Shown piece by piece: positions 4,571 through 50,824 of a stretch of DNA of 64,000 nucleotides. Position 1 is the first letter of the stretch. The number at the start of each line of letters is the position of its first letter. Under the pieces are notes generated by a model. The model saw only the letters and a program-made list of their open reading frames with translations. It did not search any database and was not told the DNA's origin. The translations under genes were made by a program, and so were the position numbers. Source of the DNA: a virus (taxonomy: Duplodnaviria; Caudoviricetes); IMG/VR virus record IMGVR_UViG_3300037067_002413, positions 64,001 to 128,000 of that record. One strand, written 5' to 3'.

Positions 4571-5322
4571 ATCTAATGAAACCTAGCGATTCAGTTGGCC
4601 GTGGTGAACCATTTACAATAGAACAGAATGATGAAGTCTACAAGCGTTTAGTCGCTGGTGATATAAAGGCACGCGATGAAATGATGGTAGGCAATGTTGC
4701 CTTAGCGATTTACCGTGTTGAGGCTTATCTACGCGGCGCATCACAGATGTCTTATTATAGGGATGAAATGATTTCGGCCGGCATATTGGGACTTTGCAGT
4801 GCAGTCGAACGTATGCAGAAAAGGGGCATAGTTAAAAATCCGAAACCGACAGGTTGTATCACAAAGGCAATTGATAGGTATATTTCGCATTGTGCGGATG
4901 AGGCCAACACGATTGTCGTATCAAGTCGTGTTCAACAGATGGCAAGAGCGGTAGGTGAACCCATAATTCTGCCACATACGGTGTCGGAAAAGACACTGAT
5001 TAGCGTTGATGATACTTCGATTCGTGATAGGGAAGAAGTATCTGAACTCAAAGAAGAAGCGTTGGCATGTTGCAAGGATGAAGTCGAAAAAACAATTGTA
5101 ACCATGCGAGTAGATGGATATACCGATGCACAAATCGGAAAATCACTTAATCTTGTAAGACGGCGCGTCTCCCGTTTACGACAGGATATTTTTAAGCGTT
5201 TCAATGAACGCTGTCCTGAATACAAAGAAACGGAACGTGCCAAAATCAAAAGACTGACTAAAGAAACCTACGAAAAGGCTAAACGAGCGACAAAGAAATC
5301 CGTCAAGGAGACTGCCAAATGA
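4567..5322 (+). CDS. sigma70-family RNA polymerase sigma factor
   Basis: GDIKARDEMMVGNVALA / DEMISAGILGLCSAVER (region 2) and YTDAQIGKSLNLVRRRVSRL (region 4 HTH). Confidence 0.8.
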   Translation: MNLMKPSDSVGRGEPFTIEQNDEVYKRLVAGDIKARDEMMVGNVALAIYRVEAYLRGASQMSYYRDEMISAGILGLCSAVERMQKRGIVKNPKPTGCITKAIDRYISHCADEANTIVVSSRVQQMARAVGEPIILPHTVSEKTLISVDDTSIRDREEVSELKEEALACCKDEVEKTIVTMRVDGYTDAQIGKSLNLVRRRVSRLRQDIFKRFNERCPEYKETERAKIKRLTKETYEKAKRATKKSVKETAK

Positions 5323-28267: not shown

Positions 28268-29602
28268 ATGAGTGCTGCTACGCAAGTGAAGCTGGCTGCG
28301 GCCGGCATCGTGACCTTTCTCGCCCTGATCCTGGTAGGGATCATGTGGGGTGGCTTGGTCGGACACAACAACATGCAGGATTATCAAATCTACCAGTCGG
28401 TCTACGGCAATGTGTCCGTTATCGACAAGTCCGGTTACTACGGAAAATGGTTTGCCACCGTCTGGACGATGCCTCGTTCGATTCAGTGTTACTACTCGGC
28501 CAGCCCGAAAGAAGGCGGCAAATCCGACGATTCGATTCGAGTCACCTTCAACGATGGCGGCACCGCGCAAATCAGTTCGTTCGTGAAGATTCGTCTACCT
28601 GCGGATGAACCCCATCGGTTGCTGATCCACCAGGATTATGCCTCCAATCGGGATAGCATCATTGACGCCGTGAAGTCGCATCTCACAAATTGCGTGAAGT
28701 CCACTGGTCCGATGATGAGTGCCAGCGAGAATCAAGCAAGCCGTAAAGCCGAATTCAACCAGGTTGTCGAAGAACAACTCTCCAAGGGATTGTTCGAGAT
28801 GCGGCGTACCGAAGTTGAATTGTCCGATATGGGTCAATTGGAGGCAGCCGGCATCGGTGCTGATGGCAAACCCATCATGCGCGAGAAGAAAGCCAAGGTT
28901 GCGGCCACCGAGATCGTGCGTGACGGCAAGAATGCGCCTATTATCGTACAGGAAAGTCCGCTGAAACGGTACGGCATCGAGATCATTCAATTCTCGGTGA
29001 CGGAAACCGAATACGATGGCAAGACTTTGGAGCAGTTCGCCGCCAAGAAGCAAAGTTACTTGGCTGCCGAACAAGCGAAGGCTCAACGCCAAGAAGAACA
29101 ACAGCAAAAGTTGATGATCGTTGAGCGCGGGCTACGCCAGGTCGCCGAAACCGAAGCCGCTGCGAATCTGGAGAAGAAAAAGGCAACCGTCTCGGCTCAA
29201 CAGGAGCAAGAGGTAGCCGTGATTCGCAAACAGCAGGCTGTTACGCAGGCTCAACAGAAGGTCGAAGTCGCCTTGCAGGATAAACAAGAGGCTGAAACCT
29301 TGAAAGCGATCGCTCAGATCAAAGCCGACCGTGCTGAATTGGACAAGAAAGCCGTGATTTCGGCCGCCGAGGCAAAAGCCAAGGAGATCGAGATTGCCGG
29401 TGGATTGTCTGATAGGGATCGCGTTTTGGCTCAAATCAAAGCCGATCGTGACGTGAAAGTTGCGGCTTCCCTGGCTGGTATCCAATCGCCCCGCGTCATT
29501 ATGACTGGTGGCGACGGCAAGGATGGCAAAGGCGTCAACGACAACCTGATGAATCTCATGTTGTTGAAGGCAACCGGCGTACTGCCTAACGAAGGTAAGT
29601 AA
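28268..29602 (+). CDS. SPFH/flotillin-like membrane protein with long coiled coil
   Basis: GGAGG RBS; N-terminal TM, VTFNDGG, AEA/Q-rich coiled coil. Confidence 0.75.
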   Translation: MSAATQVKLAAAGIVTFLALILVGIMWGGLVGHNNMQDYQIYQSVYGNVSVIDKSGYYGKWFATVWTMPRSIQCYYSASPKEGGKSDDSIRVTFNDGGTAQISSFVKIRLPADEPHRLLIHQDYASNRDSIIDAVKSHLTNCVKSTGPMMSASENQASRKAEFNQVVEEQLSKGLFEMRRTEVELSDMGQLEAAGIGADGKPIMREKKAKVAATEIVRDGKNAPIIVQESPLKRYGIEIIQFSVTETEYDGKTLEQFAAKKQSYLAAEQAKAQRQEEQQQKLMIVERGLRQVAETEAAANLEKKKATVSAQQEQEVAVIRKQQAVTQAQQKVEVALQDKQEAETLKAIAQIKADRAELDKKAVISAAEAKAKEIEIAGGLSDRDRVLAQIKADRDVKVAASLAGIQSPRVIMTGGDGKDGKGVNDNLMNLMLLKATGVLPNEGK

Positions 29603-47010: not shown

Positions 47011-48060
47011 ATGAGTATTGAATCAAGAATTGCAGAAATTGAATGTATCCGTGGTGCCAACGACCAGCAGGTTGCCGAACATGGCCGTCTATTGATGATG
47101 CGTGACGAGCGGAACGCCGGCCGGGCGGTCGAAGTCCTTGACGACGGTTTTGTCCACCTAGTCGATCACATGGGAGGCGACCATGCGATCGTCCAGTCTG
47201 CCCGCGTGAGTTACGGGGACGGGACGAAAAGTGTCAGCGACGATCGTTCGCTGATCCGTTACCTGGTTCAACATAAACATACGACGCCGCTGGAAATGTG
47301 TGAGATGAAATTCCATGTTCGCGTCCCGATGGACACCTGGCGGCAATGGATCAGGCACCGAACGGCCAGTGTCAACGAATACTCGACCCGTTACAGCGTG
47401 GCGATCGACTCGATGCAAAACACCGAGCAGGATTGGCGATTGCAAGCCGACACCAACAAGCAGGGATCAATGCCCGGTGAATTGATGTGGCCCGAAGGCT
47501 ACAAGGTCGAACCTCCGAACGATGGATCGTCCGGTGCCGTGGTGTTGGACAATGGGCGTCCCCGAATGCTCACGAGCGGCGACACGATGACGCCGAACGA
47601 ATATCTTTCTGCAAGGGAAGTCATCTTCCAGAAGGAAGCACGGCACGTCTACGAGGAACGATTGAAGTTCGGCGTTGCCCGCGAGCAGGCCCGCAAGGAT
47701 TTGCCACTAAGCACGTACACCGAGGCGTATTGGAAGATCGACCTTCACAATCTTCTACACTTCCTAGAACTGCGAATGGAGAAACACGCGCAGTTCGAGA
47801 TTAGACTGTACGCCAATGCGATTGCCCAACTCATCAAACCCATCGTGCCCGTGACGTGGGAGGCGTTTGAGGATTACTGCCTCAATGCCATGACATTGAG
47901 CATCGCCGAGCAGAACGAGATCAGGCAAGCCCTGCATCCCACCTGGACTGTTTGCAAGAAGGCCATGAGTAGCCGGGAGCGGACGGAGTTGGAAACCAAG
48001 ATGGAATGCCTTGGCATAGAACCATTGCTGTATCCGTCAGATGAGGGATTGTCGTCGTGA
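47011..48060 (+). CDS. thyX: FAD-dependent thymidylate synthase
   Basis: RHRTASVNEYSTRY signature, H.TPLE, REQAR..LP, HAQFEIR. Confidence 0.95.
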   Translation: MSIESRIAEIECIRGANDQQVAEHGRLLMMRDERNAGRAVEVLDDGFVHLVDHMGGDHAIVQSARVSYGDGTKSVSDDRSLIRYLVQHKHTTPLEMCEMKFHVRVPMDTWRQWIRHRTASVNEYSTRYSVAIDSMQNTEQDWRLQADTNKQGSMPGELMWPEGYKVEPPNDGSSGAVVLDNGRPRMLTSGDTMTPNEYLSAREVIFQKEARHVYEERLKFGVAREQARKDLPLSTYTEAYWKIDLHNLLHFLELRMEKHAQFEIRLYANAIAQLIKPIVPVTWEAFEDYCLNAMTLSIAEQNEIRQALHPTWTVCKKAMSSRERTELETKMECLGIEPLLYPSDEGLSS

Positions 48061-48061
48061 T

Positions 48062-48110
48062 AGGAAAGTTCACTTTAACCGGAAAGTTTTTGTAACCGTC
48101 AAACTTTATC
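48062..48110 (+). promoter_or_regulatory. iteron block upstream of the RAMP gene (copy of 37752-37804)
   Basis: ggaaagttcactttaaccggaaagtttttgtaaccgtcaaacttt. Confidence 0.6.
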
Positions 48111-48198: not shown

Positions 48199-48774
48199 AT
48201 GTACAAGCAGATGACGTTCCGTGTCCGTGGTGTCTCGCCGCTGATTATGCACAATCCTCAGTTGGCAGACCCGCTCAATTCCTTTTCCAAGGACTTGAAG
48301 AAAATCACCAGCAAGAGGAAGAAGACCGACGAAGATTACGCCGAGATGGCGCGTATTGAGTTCCTCGGCGGTCTTTATCTCGATGAGGACAACAAACCGT
48401 GCATCCCTGGTGAGACGATCGAAGCGGCTATTGTAGCCGGTGCCAAGAAGAACAAGATGGGGCCGGCGGCAAAGTCCGGTATCATCGTGGACGGCAACTT
48501 CCGCCTTGAGTACAAGGGACCGAAGACGCCGGAGAGCTTGTTCGCCGACGACAACTTCCGCAACACGTCTCGATGCCGTGTCGGCAATAGTGCCGTCATG
48601 CGAACTCGCCCGATCTTCAAGGAATGGGAATGTGAGTTCGTGGTCAATTATCTACCGGATGTGGTCAGCGAAGAAGATGTGATCTCATTCGTTGAAAACG
48701 CAGGGCGGCTTTGTGGCTGGGGCGATTGGCGTCCCCGGCATGGCCGCTTTGAGGTTCTCCAACAGGCTGCATAG
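48199..48774 (+). CDS. stand-alone RAMP / Cas7-like RNA-binding protein (putative guide-RNA effector)
   Basis: beta1 FRVRGVSPLIMH, PCIPGETIEAAI (cf. RAMP P.IPGSSLKG), RTRP.F.EW, C-terminal glycine loop AGRLCGWGDWRPRHGRFEV; TAAGGA RBS. Confidence 0.75.
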   Translation: MYKQMTFRVRGVSPLIMHNPQLADPLNSFSKDLKKITSKRKKTDEDYAEMARIEFLGGLYLDEDNKPCIPGETIEAAIVAGAKKNKMGPAAKSGIIVDGNFRLEYKGPKTPESLFADDNFRNTSRCRVGNSAVMRTRPIFKEWECEFVVNYLPDVVSEEDVISFVENAGRLCGWGDWRPRHGRFEVLQQAA

Positions 48775-48782
48775 GAGGTATT

Positions 48783-49256
48783 ATGCCAGTTGTAACCTCT
48801 ACCCATCCGTCGCTTATCGACGTATGGCAGTTGGCGAAAGGTGATTATATTTCGCCAGAGTTCCTGGAAGGTTTGACCGGGTTTCTGCGGTACACGCAAG
48901 ACTATAGCTTCGCTATGCTTTCGTTACGCGATGACCTTGAGCGCAGGCTAGGGGCCATTGGAAACCCAGTCACAATCAAACAGGAAGACCAAGGTCTGCG
49001 TCTTCTGACGGACAGCGAGGCAGCGGAATACAATGCCCACCGAGGAAACAAACTCCTTGGGCAAATGGGTCGCGCTCACAAGCGCAACCAAGCCGTTGAC
49101 TCGAACAACCTGTCTCAGGAAGAAGACCACCAGCACCTACGGAACTTGCAAGTCCAAGGAACCATCCTGTCTTCCGCGAAACAAATCAAGCGGCAATACC
49201 GCATGAAATCGTTTCAGCGAAGGACGCCTGGTCTCCCGGTTGCAGTTCAAGCGTGA
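48783..49256 (+). CDS. hypothetical accessory protein of the RAMP-array locus
   Basis: AGGAGG RBS overlapping the RAMP stop; lies between the RAMP gene and the array. Confidence 0.7.
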   Translation: MPVVTSTHPSLIDVWQLAKGDYISPEFLEGLTGFLRYTQDYSFAMLSLRDDLERRLGAIGNPVTIKQEDQGLRLLTDSEAAEYNAHRGNKLLGQMGRAHKRNQAVDSNNLSQEEDHQHLRNLQVQGTILSSAKQIKRQYRMKSFQRRTPGLPVAVQA

Positions 49257-49263
49257 AAACGCA

Positions 49264-49299
49264 GGGCGGTCGTCGGGAGACCGGCGACCGCCCATTTTT
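49264..49299 (+). terminator. GC hairpin + T-tract between the genes and the array
   Basis: gggcggtcgtcgg-gaga-ccggcgaccgccc-attttt. Confidence 0.7.
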
Positions 49300-49300
49300 A

Positions 49301-50582
49301 AGAAACCGCTTTACAACAAAAGGCGGTTTTCTAAACGAATAAGTTGGGGTTAGGTGATGTCTGATCCCGTCCAGTGGGGCGATGTGAAGTTTGGTTCTTT
49401 TAACGAAGCCGTCTTGCAAGAGACGGTTTCCTTTAGCGAACCTGTGGTTCGATGCGGTCTGGTACGGTATGGTCGGCAAGGTTGTGTGATGTAAGGTTCT
49501 CTGAACGAAGCCGCTTCGTAAGAGGCGGTTTCCTTGAGTGAATCTAACCTGGGGTTGGCTTGGGTGAAGTCTGGTCGGTCAAGATGATGTATGGTTCTCT
49601 GAACGAAACCGCTTCGCAAGAGGCGGTTTCCTTGAGCGAACCTGCGGTATTTTGTGGTATGGTGACGTGAAGTACGGTCGGGCTATTTGATTTCTTTGAC
49701 GAAGCCGCTTCGCAAGAAGCGTCTTCCTCAAACGAATCTGCGGTTCGGTCAGTCATGGTCAGTTAATGTGTGGTGGAGTCATGTAAGTTGCGATAAATTA
49801 GGGTTCCTTTAACGAAGCCATTTCGCAAGAGATGGTTTCCTCAAACGAATCTTTGATATGGTCGGTTCCTGTGCAATATGTTGCGGTTCACCAAGGTAGT
49901 GTGGGGTATCCTAATGAACGGTTTGGTTCCTTTAACGAAACTGCTTCGCAAGAGGCGGTTTCCTTGAGCGAATCAACTTTGGTCGAGTCGTGGAAGGTAG
50001 GTTGTGGTGAGGTGATGTAATGAACGGTGAGGTTCTCTGAACGAAACCGCTTCGGAAGAGGCGGTTTCCTTTAGCGAATCTAAATCAAGGTTCGGTGCGT
50101 TGAGTGGCGGTTATGTTAGGTCTGATACGGTAAGTAAGGGCGAGGTTTTCTGAACGAAGCCGTTTCGCAAGAAACGGTTTCCTTGAGCGAATCAGGTCTG
50201 TCGAGGTTGTTTTGCGGTGGGGTGGGGCAACGCATGGCTGTGCATGATTGGGTTCTCTGAACGAAGCCGTTTCGCAAGAAACGACTTCCTTGAGCGAATC
50301 AACTATGGTACGGTCAGTCAATGTGTAGTATGGTGATGTATGCTGCGATGAGTTAAGGTTCGTTTAACGAAACCATTTCGCAAGAGATGGTTTCCTCAAA
50401 CGAATCTGTGGTAGAGTAGAGTCAGTTCTGGTATGGCAGATTTTGGAAGGGTGGAATTTGGTTCTCTGAACGAAACCGCTTTGCAAGAAGCGGTTTCCTT
50501 TAGCAAACCTAAGTTAAGACTAGGTTGAGTGAAGTGATGTGTGTTGCGATCCGGTCTGGTATGGTCATGTAATTTTAGGTTC
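49301..50582 (+). ncRNA. repeat-spacer RNA array: eleven 50-nt hairpin repeats (+1 degenerate leading copy) and 12 spacers made of (GGT-like)NN pentamers
   Basis: Repeats start at 49393, 49495, 49593, 49689, 49802, 49925, 50031, 50144, 50251, 50357, 50460; consensus GGTTCTCTGAACGAAGCCGCTTCGCAAGAGGCGGTTTCCTTGAGCGAATC; spacers 46-73 nt. Confidence 0.9.
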
Positions 50583-50585
50583 TAT

Positions 50586-50620
50586 GCCGCCTGACGGAAT
50601 AATCCGTGCAGGCGGCTTTT
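50586..50620 (+). terminator. intrinsic terminator closing the array
   Basis: gccgcctg-acgga-ataa-tccgt-gcaggcggc-tttt. Confidence 0.75.
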
Positions 50621-50824
50621 CGTTTCTTGCTGGCACTCTAGGAAACTTCGTGCCAACCGGAAACTTTCTGTAGATTCCTCAGTTTTCTCAATTGATAGTC
50701 GATACCCTTTGTACGCAGATTGGGCAACCGAAAGAGACGACCAACACTCGTCCCGGAACATCCCGTGCAATTAGTATAGGCGACCATTTCAAGGATCAAA
50801 AGAGTTTGTAAGAAGGAGAAGGAC

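What the first reader, a model, noticed from the sequence alone, without database searches (positions are those of the whole stretch)
49341..50577. Spacers have strong 5-nt periodicity (GGT/NGT-like triplet + variable NN): a hidden dinucleotide code
Seen: the spacers parse into pentamers in phase with the GGTTC that starts the next repeat. Examples: 49341-49392 aa|gttGG|ggtTA|ggtGA|tgtCT|gatCC|cgtCC|agtGG|ggcGA|tgtGA|agtTT; 49975-50030 a|actTT|ggtCG|agtCG|tggAA|ggtAG|gttGT|ggtGA|ggtGA|tgtAA|tgaAC|ggtGA; 50510-50577 taa|gttAA|gacTA|ggtTG|agtGA|agtGA|tgtGT|gttGC|gatCC|ggtCT|ggtAT|ggtCA|tgtAA|tttTA. Six of 12 spacer lengths are 5n+3, and a few spacers have a phase slip. Other NN strings: 49739-49801 GC TC CA AT CA AA GT GG CA AA GC AA AG; 49852-49924 TT AT CG CC GC AT GC TC AA AG GG AT AA AC TT; 50081-50143 AA AA TC GC GA GC TA TA CT AC AA AG GA; 50301-50356 AT AC CA AA GT AT GA AT GC GA AA; 50407-50459 GT AG AG CA CT AT AG TT AG GG TT. 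Inference: the triplets are protein-held scaffold and the NN pairs specify a non-contiguous target, e.g. NNx-NNx skipping every third base, which would tolerate wobble changes. Read as codon positions 1-2, several strings give plausible peptides (e.g. I/M-T-Q/H-K/N-V-I/M-E/D-I/M-A-E/D-K/N), which is only suggestive.
Basis: partly seen in the sequence, partly recalled or inferred. Interest (0 to 1): 0.92.

Follow-up and report, generated by a model that had tools for sequence, protein, structure and literature searches.

The report
Phage VIPR guide-RNA array
The five-base rhythm is real and marks an array of twelve guide RNAs of a VIPR system, a CRISPR-related phage system first described in 2026 preprints, so this is a new example of a known kind and not a new kind of code.

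Summary
Observation confirmed. The 12 "spacers" (46-73 nt) have a strong period of 5. The Fourier z-score is 16. GT-GT distances are multiples of 5 in 48% of cases, against 20% in shuffles. The units read G-G-Y plus two almost information-free bases, mostly in phase with the GGTTC that opens the next repeat.

The locus is a VIPR system (Viral Interference Programmable Repeat; bioRxiv 10.64898/2026.04.26.720920, .720927, 2026.10.15.759431):
- The upstream 191-aa gene is a homologue of the solved SUSP1 Vipr protein (PDB 36pp, E 6e-40). It has a Cas7-like fold and keeps the GGY-binding residues.
- A vap-like gene follows it.
- Then come 12 vrRNAs, each a pentamer tract plus a 50-nt hairpin tail with a GNRA loop.
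- The same module sits in Felix O1-like, mycobacterial and Pseudomonas phages.
- A relative with 92% identical Vipr keeps the tails but has wholly different tracts.

I could not name a natural target. Exact NNx scans gave two hits that are compatible with chance, and no RNA data exist.

The scan has met VIPR before on other DNA (169 notes in at least 143 genomes). Verdict: new member of a known kind.

The parts
48199..48774 (+). vipr gene (P0001, 191 aa): a minimal Cas7-like RAMP
   Evidence: 40% identical to SUSP1 Vipr: BLASTP E 2e-49 and PDB 36pp 'SUSP1 Vipr protein' E 5.6e-40. Matches phrog_4652 at E 4e-63. The AF2 model has pLDDT 93.5. Foldseek top hits are Csm3/Cmr4 (E 8e-6, prob 1). The top 21 VIA hits are all Cas7-type RAMPs with Z 8.1-10.9.
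48783..49256 (+). vap-like accessory gene (P0002, 157 aa)
   Evidence: It lies directly after vipr, as in SUSP1, wV8, LittleE and Medea1. It is homologous to the accessory gene of another VIPR locus, L010 (E 1e-17). The family has 896 representatives. Similarity to SUSP1 vap1 is only weak and collinear. The model shows a small N-terminal helix-helix-hairpin domain and a long helical hairpin.
49264..49303 (+). Intrinsic-terminator-like hairpin after vap
   Evidence: A 13-bp stem with 11 G-C pairs, followed by a T run.
49300..49340 (+). Degenerate tail-like hairpin before the first tract
   Evidence: Seen directly in the sequence. It resembles the tail hairpin and its 3' end, but lacks the 5' GGTTC strand.
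49341..49442 (+). vrRNA 1: tract 49341-49392 (10 units) and tail 49393-49442
49443..49544 (+). vrRNA 2: tract 49443-49494 (10 units, one 4-nt slip) and tail 49495-49544
49545..49642 (+). vrRNA 3: tract 49545-49592 (9 units) and tail 49593-49642
49643..49738 (+). vrRNA 4: tract 49643-49688 (about 7 good units, decayed 3' end) and the most divergent tail, 49689-49738
49739..49851 (+). vrRNA 5: tract 49739-49801 (12 units) and tail 49802-49851
49852..49974 (+). vrRNA 6: tract 49852-49924 (14 units) and tail 49925-49974
49975..50080 (+). vrRNA 7: tract 49975-50030 (11 units) and tail 50031-50080
50081..50193 (+). vrRNA 8: tract 50081-50143 (12 units) and tail 50144-50193
50194..50300 (+). vrRNA 9: tract 50194-50250 (11 units, one 6-nt slip, the weakest phasing) and tail 50251-50300
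50301..50406 (+). vrRNA 10: tract 50301-50356 (11 units) and tail 50357-50406
50407..50509 (+). vrRNA 11: tract 50407-50459 (10 units) and tail 50460-50509
50510..50628 (+). vrRNA 12: tract 50510-50577 (13 units). In place of the usual tail it has GGTTC followed by an intrinsic terminator hairpin (50586-50616) and a U run.
   Evidence: The fold has an energy of -24.8 kcal/mol, z = -3.4, and no shuffle of 200 folds as well.

Best explanation
The region is the guide-RNA array of a phage-borne VIPR system of the type II (SUSP1-like) layout: vipr, a vap-like gene, then 12 vrRNAs on the + strand.

Each vrRNA is a tract of 7-14 pentamers (consensus G-G-Y-N-N, with many relaxed triplets). It is followed by a conserved 50-nt tail that folds into a 20-bp interrupted hairpin closed by a GNRA tetraloop. 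The last vrRNA ends in a terminator hairpin instead.

The mechanism is inferred by homology to the characterised SUSP1 system:
- Vipr protomers polymerise along the tract, one per pentamer.
- They bury each GGY triplet and present the two N bases.
- The NN pairs bind double-stranded DNA that carries the complementary NN with one skipped base between pairs (NNx).
- Binding silences transcription of rival mobile elements, and the vap protein enhances the effect.

Shown here: the periodicity, the tail structure with covariation, Vipr homology, fold and contact residues, the conserved gene order in distant phages, and complete turnover of tracts against conserved tails in a close relative.

Inferred, not shown here: transcription and processing, RNP formation, the skip rule for this clade, and the targets.
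For: Literature:
- VIPR is defined as Vipr + vap + vrRNAs of 9-16 YNNGG repeats with a conserved 3' tail. The structural basis is one protomer per repeat.

Protein:
- P0001 matches the SUSP1 Vipr gene (NC_028808.2 28474-29061) at 40% identity, E 2e-49, and PDB 36pp 'SUSP1 Vipr protein' at E 5.6e-40.
- The predicted fold is a Cas7-type RAMP.
- The SUSP1 residues that hold GGY and the skipped base (H17, R138, D177, W178, R179, E71, C173, K33) align with H18, R137, D176, W177, R178, E72, C172 and K34 of P0001. Of these, H18, R137 and R178 are invariant or nearly so among 34 homologues.

RNA:
- Period 5 has z = 16.
- The logo reads G, G, Y, with 0.08 and 0.05 bits at the NN positions.
- The tail has 20 predicted pairs, 5 with compensatory changes, and a GNRA loop.
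- A terminator closes the array.

Comparative:
- Homologues of P0001 in wV8 (Felixounavirus), LittleE (Mycobacterium) and Medea1 (Pseudomonas) are each followed by a gene of about 150-190 aa and a non-coding stretch of GGY-NN pentamers. So are the metagenomic loci L010 and L011.
- A relative with 92% identical Vipr has vipr and vap DNA 85% identical and 11 tails 86% identical to the window's. Its tracts are no more similar than unrelated tracts are (61% against a 63% background).

Other:
- No self-target in the 146-kb genome under any skip rule, as the paper reports for VIPR.
- NN composition fits codon positions 1-2 of the sense strand best, 10.8 bits above genome dinucleotides.
Against: - Only 41% of units are canonical GGY, and three tracts have phase slips, so some guides may be weak or decayed.
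- The tail is a plain hairpin, not the pseudoknot reported for the SUSP1 clade.
- P0002 could not be tied to SUSP1 vap1 with confidence (hhalign probability 4%).
- The two exact NNx hits found are compatible with chance, so targeting is not demonstrated for this array.
Confidence: 0.9

Rival explanations
1. A functionally decayed or repurposed VIPR array. The relaxed triplets and slips would mean that many of the 12 RNAs no longer guide silencing. They might act as decoys, as regulators of Vipr availability, or as nothing at all.
For: Only 53 of 128 units are canonical GGY, and vr02, vr04 and vr09 have slips or decayed ends. No natural target was found above chance. The third VIPR paper shows that vrRNAs can work as redirecting decoys.
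Against: SUSP1's own active vrRNAs also carry TGT and AGT units (sequence). Position 3 is a pyrimidine in 96% of units, which fits the purine-excluding pocket. The tails keep their pairing through compensatory changes. vipr and vap are intact, and the locus is letter-identical in samples from four runs of three studies.
Confidence: 0.06
2. A protein-sponge RNA. The pentamer tracts would wrap a ring or filament of an RNA-binding protein, as the GAG repeats of trp leader RNA wrap TRAP, only to titrate or store that protein, with no nucleic-acid target.
For: Triplets separated by two free bases, about 11 per tract, resemble a TRAP site. This was my first reading.
Against: The adjacent protein is a Vipr homologue with a solved structure, not a TRAP-like protein. 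In the family, the NN bases are shown to specify DNA targets. The complete replacement of tracts between close relatives is expected for guides and not for a sponge.
Confidence: 0.02
3. An atypical CRISPR array with 50-nt repeats and long spacers acquired from invaders.
For: It has regular repeat-spacer alternation and a RAMP gene nearby. There is a weak sub-threshold Rfam hit to a CRISPR repeat model on the opposite strand (16.5 bits against a gathering score of 39).
Against: The spacers share an internal period-5 scaffold, so they cannot be copied protospacers. Their lengths vary from 46 to 73 nt. The repeats diverge and covary like a structured RNA. The only RAMP is a Vipr. VIPR loci lack CRISPR arrays by definition.
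Confidence: 0.01

Closest known systems
Type II VIPR system of Escherichia phage SUSP1 (Vipr, vap1, four vrRNAs; bioRxiv 10.64898/2026.04.26.720920 and .720927; PDB 36pp)
   Same: - The Vipr protein is homologous (40% identity) and keeps the GGY-binding residues.
- The gene order is vipr, then a small accessory gene, then a downstream vrRNA array.
- Tracts of GGY-NN pentamers have free NN bases, and each tract is followed by a conserved structured tail.
- It is phage-borne and has no self-targets.
   Different: - 12 guides in one array, against 4 (one upstream, three downstream), and no upstream guide here.
- The tail is a 50-nt GNRA-capped hairpin unrelated in sequence to the SUSP1 tail, which forms a pseudoknot.
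- The triplets are more relaxed.
- The accessory protein is not demonstrably vap1.
- The host is unknown. The phage is an uncultured 146-kb one from landfill and groundwater.
- The targets are unknown.
Class 1 CRISPR backbone (Cas7/Csm3/Cmr4 filament on crRNA)
   Same: A RAMP fold with G-loop and thumb. One protomer binds per fixed RNA step. Periodic base flipping interrupts the guide-target duplex.
   Different: - The step is 5 nt, with three guide bases removed and only two pairing, against a 6-nt step with five pairing.
- The guides are genome-encoded repeats and not acquired spacers.
- No cas1/cas2, Cas6 or large subunit was seen at the locus.
- There is no PAM, according to the paper.
TRAP binding site in the Bacillus trp leader (11 GAG/UAG triplets with 2-3 nt spacers)
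   Same: Conserved triplets are separated by two free bases, about 11 per site, with one protein subunit per triplet.
   Different: The protein family is unrelated. In TRAP sites the spacer bases carry no information, whereas here they are the informative part.

Membership tests
VIPR system | A Vipr protein: a minimal RAMP homologous to characterised Vipr | tested here: met
   PDB 36pp 'SUSP1 Vipr protein' at E 5.6e-40 over residues 3-186. BLASTP to SUSP1 agp039 gives 40% identity, E 2e-49.
VIPR system | RAMP fold (RRM core, G-loop, thumb) with the residues that hold GGY | tested here: met
   The model has pLDDT 93.5. The best structural matches are Cas7-type RAMPs. H18, R137, D176, W177, R178, E72, C172 and K34 align with the SUSP1 contact residues. 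The SUSP1 M72 position is T here.
VIPR system | vrRNA tract of tandem YNNGG (GGY-NN) repeats, 9-16 units, with hypervariable NN | tested here: met
   There are 12 tracts of 7-14 units. Period 5 has z = 16. The NN positions carry 0.05-0.08 bits. Canonical GGY makes up only 41% of units, but position 3 is a pyrimidine in 96%. The tracts are fully replaced in a near relative.
VIPR system | A conserved, structured 3' tail after each tract | tested here: met
   Eleven 50-nt tails have 20 predicted pairs, 5 with compensatory changes, and a GNRA loop. The structure is a hairpin and not the SUSP1-clade pseudoknot.
VIPR system | An adjacent vap accessory gene (type II: vap1, predicted DNA-binding) | tested here: inconclusive
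   Position and size fit. P0002 is homologous to the accessory gene of VIPR locus L010 (E 1e-17). Against SUSP1 vap1, BLASTP gives E 0.016 and hhalign gives E 0.01 with probability 4%. Fold searches gave only weak winged-helix-type and helical-hairpin matches.
VIPR system | vrRNAs are expressed and co-purify with Vipr | not testable with these tools
   No RNA run holds the locus. This needs sRNA-seq and a pull-down.
VIPR system | Natural targets match the guides by the 1-nt skip rule, and there are no self-targets | tested here: inconclusive
   No self-target was found. Ten exact NNx scans on six guides gave two sites compatible with chance.
CRISPR array | Spacers are copies of foreign DNA without a shared internal scaffold, and repeats are near-identical | tested here: not met
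   All spacers share the period-5 GGY scaffold. The repeats are 61-86% identical to the reference copy and covary.
CRISPR array | Adaptation genes cas1/cas2 at the locus | not tested
   Ten neighbouring ORFs were scanned against Pfam and none matched a cas family. The whole genome was not searched for cas1/cas2.

The most novel reading that the evidence does not exclude
This clade may be a distinct VIPR variant. Its Vipr would tolerate relaxed triplets (any of G, A or T at position 1, and G-N-Y forms). Its guides would be capped by a simple GNRA hairpin instead of a pseudoknot. It would deploy an unusually large battery of 12 guides, some of them aimed at conserved motifs of cellular genes and not at rival phages. 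The exact, wobble-phased match of guide 10 to the conserved motif of NAD-dependent sugar epimerase/dehydratase genes could be one such case. That would extend VIPR to control of host surface-sugar metabolism.
Probability: 0.08. Interest if true: 0.55.

Novelty: new member of a known kind. Interest (0 to 1): 0.3.

Why it matters
It shows that the VIPR guide architecture can be recognised from raw sequence alone. It also adds a large, tidy 12-guide array from an uncultured 146-kb landfill and groundwater phage, outside the enterobacterial and Pseudomonas examples studied so far.

Three features could help define what the system really requires: the GNRA-hairpin tail, the relaxed triplets, and the complete turnover of tracts between phages whose vipr genes are 85% identical.

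It does not open a new question, because the mechanism was published in 2026 and the scan has already met many such loci.

Tried and rejected
- **Rfam:** the region gave only sub-threshold noise.
- **Family libraries:** Pfam, NCBIfam and PADLOC have no model for P0001 or P0002. Only PHROGs has one, phrog_4652, of unknown function.
- **First idea:** a TRAP-like protein sponge. I dropped it once the VIPR papers and the PDB match were found.
- **Tail consensus in IMG/VR:** a search with the tail consensus gave one chance hit inside a coding region.
- **Target search, IMG/VR:** exact NNx patterns of 10-11 units gave nothing for vr08, vr07, vr05 and vr01.
- **vr12 hit:** it matched one homologous site in the tape-measure gene of three related contigs. 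The 10 core units all match, but the three flanking units do not. The skipped base falls on codon position 1, and no other guide hits those 45-53-kb genomes.
- **vr10 hit:** it matched one site, 10 of 11 units, with skips on wobble positions. The site lies inside an NAD-dependent epimerase/dehydratase gene of a 5.7-kb contig of 36% G+C. I rate it as chance. My estimate is about 0.1 hits per scan from base composition, and about 0.3 in frame from amino-acid frequencies for this common motif.
- **Larger collections:** metagenome scans (vr08, vr05) and a species-genome scan (vr07) gave nothing.
- **Cross-tests:** guides of the near relative against this genome and against the hit contigs gave nothing above shuffles. 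All guides against every fetched locus gave nothing new.
- **Host:** an exact search with the phage tRNA-Ala found no genome. The only named ThyX relative is from a Planctomycetia MAG at 56% identity, which is a weak hint.
- **Expression:** no RNA holder is listed for the locus.
- **vap fold:** Foldseek and VIA gave nothing clear.
- **LittleE:** ARAGORN finds no tRNA in the inter-tract elements.

Full report
**What is there**

Between 49300 and 50628 the + strand carries 11 copies of a 50-nt element. Each begins with GGTTC, contains a hairpin with a GNRA loop, and ends GAAYC. The copies are separated by 12 stretches of 46-73 nt. A degenerate copy of the hairpin precedes the first stretch. The last stretch runs into GGTTC followed by a strong terminator hairpin and a U run.

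The window is part of a 145,969-bp IMG/VR virus record rated complete.

- GT-GT distances are multiples of 5 in 48.3% of cases. Dinucleotide-preserving shuffles give 19.8% +/- 2.2%, with a maximum of 28.6% in 1000 shuffles.
- Fourier power at period 5 has z = 16. Only its harmonic at 2.5 is also high.
- A slip-tolerant parse gives 128 five-base units with G (65%), G (68%), T/C (84%/12%) and then two positions carrying 0.08 and 0.05 bits.
- Canonical GGY makes up 41% of units. TGT, AGT, GTT and GAT are frequent. Three tracts contain a 4- or 6-base slip or a decayed end.
- No other place in the genome has such tracts.

**What it is**

Rfam has nothing. The gene just upstream (48199-48774, P0001) has no Pfam, NCBIfam or PADLOC family, but it matches phrog_4652.

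A tblastn search of cultured phages found homologues in 156 records, including Felix O1-like phages, Mycobacterium phage LittleE, Pseudomonas phage Medea1 and Gordonia phages. In wV8, LittleE and Medea1 the homologue is followed by a gene of about 150-190 aa and then by a non-coding stretch. When read, that stretch consists of GGT-NN or GGC-NN pentamers. The same is true of two IMG/VR loci.

A literature search then found three 2026 preprints that describe exactly this module as VIPR:
- **Components.** A Vipr protein, which is a minimal RAMP, a vap accessory gene, and vrRNAs made of 9-16 YNNGG repeats followed by a conserved tail.
- **Recognition.** The NN bases recognise double-stranded DNA with one skipped base between pairs, and the skipped base usually falls on the codon wobble position. 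No PAM is needed.
- **Outcome.** Binding represses transcription of rival satellites and prophages.
- **Structure.** Cryo-EM shows one protomer per repeat. The protomers hold GGY and present NN.

**Membership tests**

- SUSP1 (NC_028808.2) has the P0001 homologue at 28474-29061. A 146-aa gene follows it, and non-coding pentamer stretches lie on both sides, as the paper describes.
- P0001 is 40% identical to it (E 2e-49). It also matches the deposited 'SUSP1 Vipr protein' chain, PDB 36pp, at E 5.6e-40.
- A confident model (pLDDT 93.5) finds Csm3, Cmr4, gRAMP and Csf2-type Cas7 proteins as its best structural matches.
- The residues reported to bind G1 (H17, D177), G2 (R138, W178), Y3 (E71, R179, C173) and the skipped target base (K33) are all present at the aligned positions of P0001. 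Only the M72 position differs, and it is T here.
- The purine-excluding Y3 pocket fits the finding that position 3 is the best-kept position of the pentamer, a pyrimidine in 96% of units.
- SUSP1's own guides also contain TGT and AGT units, so relaxed first positions are normal for the family.

**The tail**

The 11 tails align without gaps. They fold into 20 pairs interrupted by small internal loops and closed by a GNRA tetraloop. Five pairs keep pairing through changes on both sides.

So the "repeat" is the structured 3' handle of each guide, and the "spacer" is the guide tract. The unit is therefore tract plus the following tail, which gives 12 vrRNAs.

The tail is unrelated in sequence to the SUSP1 tail, and it is a hairpin where the SUSP1 clade has a pseudoknot. 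There is no guide upstream of vipr here.

**Guide turnover**

ENA assemblies hold a relative whose Vipr is 92% identical.
- Its vipr and vap DNA are 85% identical to the window's.
- Its 11 tails are on average 86% identical to the window's tails.
- Its tracts match the window's no better than unrelated tracts match each other (61% against 63%).

Scaffold and handle are conserved while the informative part is replaced. That is what a guide array should look like.

Within the phage population the array is stable. Contigs from landfill and groundwater runs of three studies cover the locus without a single difference.

**The accessory gene**

- P0002 belongs to a large family of 896 representatives.
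- It is homologous to the accessory gene of the L010 VIPR locus.
- Its link to SUSP1 vap1 is only a weak collinear similarity.
- The model shows a small N-terminal helix-helix-hairpin domain and a long helical hairpin. Fold searches were not conclusive.

**Targets**

- No guide matches the phage's own genome above shuffled controls under skip 0-3, as reported for VIPR.
- Collection scans here accept only exact patterns, so I searched runs of 10-11 units. Seven scans found nothing in IMG/VR (vr08, vr07, vr05, vr01), the metagenome collection (vr08, vr05) or the species genomes (vr07).
- vr12 matched one site in a tape-measure gene shared by three related contigs. The skipped base falls on codon position 1, the flanking units do not match, and no other guide hits those genomes.
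- vr10 matched a site in an NAD-dependent epimerase/dehydratase gene with skips on wobble positions. The contig has 36% G+C, against 50% for this phage. The motif is a common conserved one, and I estimate about 0.3 in-frame chance hits for it.
- Two hits in six IMG/VR scans, against roughly half a hit expected, is not evidence of targeting.
- A weaker, independent sign is that the NN composition fits codon positions 1-2 of the sense strand better than any other phase or the genome's dinucleotides. The margin is 10.8 bits over the genome dinucleotides and 6 bits over the next model.

**Verdict**

The locus is a new member of the VIPR family, closest to type II.

Its own features are the 12-guide array, the GNRA-hairpin tail, the relaxed triplets and the environmental, non-enterobacterial setting.

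The kind is already described, and this scan has noted it many times on other DNA (169 notes in at least 143 genomes). The interest is therefore modest.

Noticed in passing
L013:5150-5450 (Mycobacterium phage LittleE, after gp33): The GGC-NN tracts of this VIPR locus are separated by elements that look like a tRNA T-arm with an acceptor-like stem (GGTTCGA-type loops). They might recruit host tRNA-processing enzymes to cut the guides apart. ARAGORN calls no tRNA there.
   Followed up: partly
window 49443-49474 and 49589-49648, seen in run X2: The groundwater sample holds short contigs that match only tail pieces of this array and run on into different pentamer tracts (GGC/GGT-NN). Other VIPR arrays with related tails therefore seem to coexist in the same community.
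   Followed up: no
L012:3756-3813 and 5149-5206 (Escherichia phage wV8): The repeat_region features annotated 'DR_4' in the wV8 record coincide with the vrRNA tails on both sides of its vipr and vap genes. These guide RNAs have sat in GenBank as unexplained direct repeats.
   Followed up: partly
L010:3940-5500 (IMGVR_UViG_3300001533_000474): A VIPR locus with near-perfect GGC-NN tracts in three places: one before vipr, three between vipr and the accessory gene, and two after it. This layout differs from the window's.
   Followed up: partly
window 48062-48110: Two copies of a TAACCG...AAAGTT/AAACTT motif lie in the 139-nt gap between thyX and vipr. They could be a promoter or operator of the VIPR operon. 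There is no pentamer tract there.
   Followed up: no
L027:3277-3447 (near relative from ENA ERZ13693045): The related phage encodes a 56-aa CsrA-family protein a few genes upstream of its sigma factor, thyX and VIPR genes.
   Followed up: no
window 47011-48060: The phage ThyX has relatives on several contigs of 137-149 kb, which suggests a family of similar large phages. The only named relative in the list is from a Planctomycetia MAG at 56% identity, a weak hint at the host.
   Followed up: partly
window 49264-49303: A strong terminator-like hairpin stands between the accessory gene and the array. The guides may therefore have their own promoter in the short stretch before 49341, or depend on read-through. 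No sigma-70-like promoter was found there.
   Followed up: no
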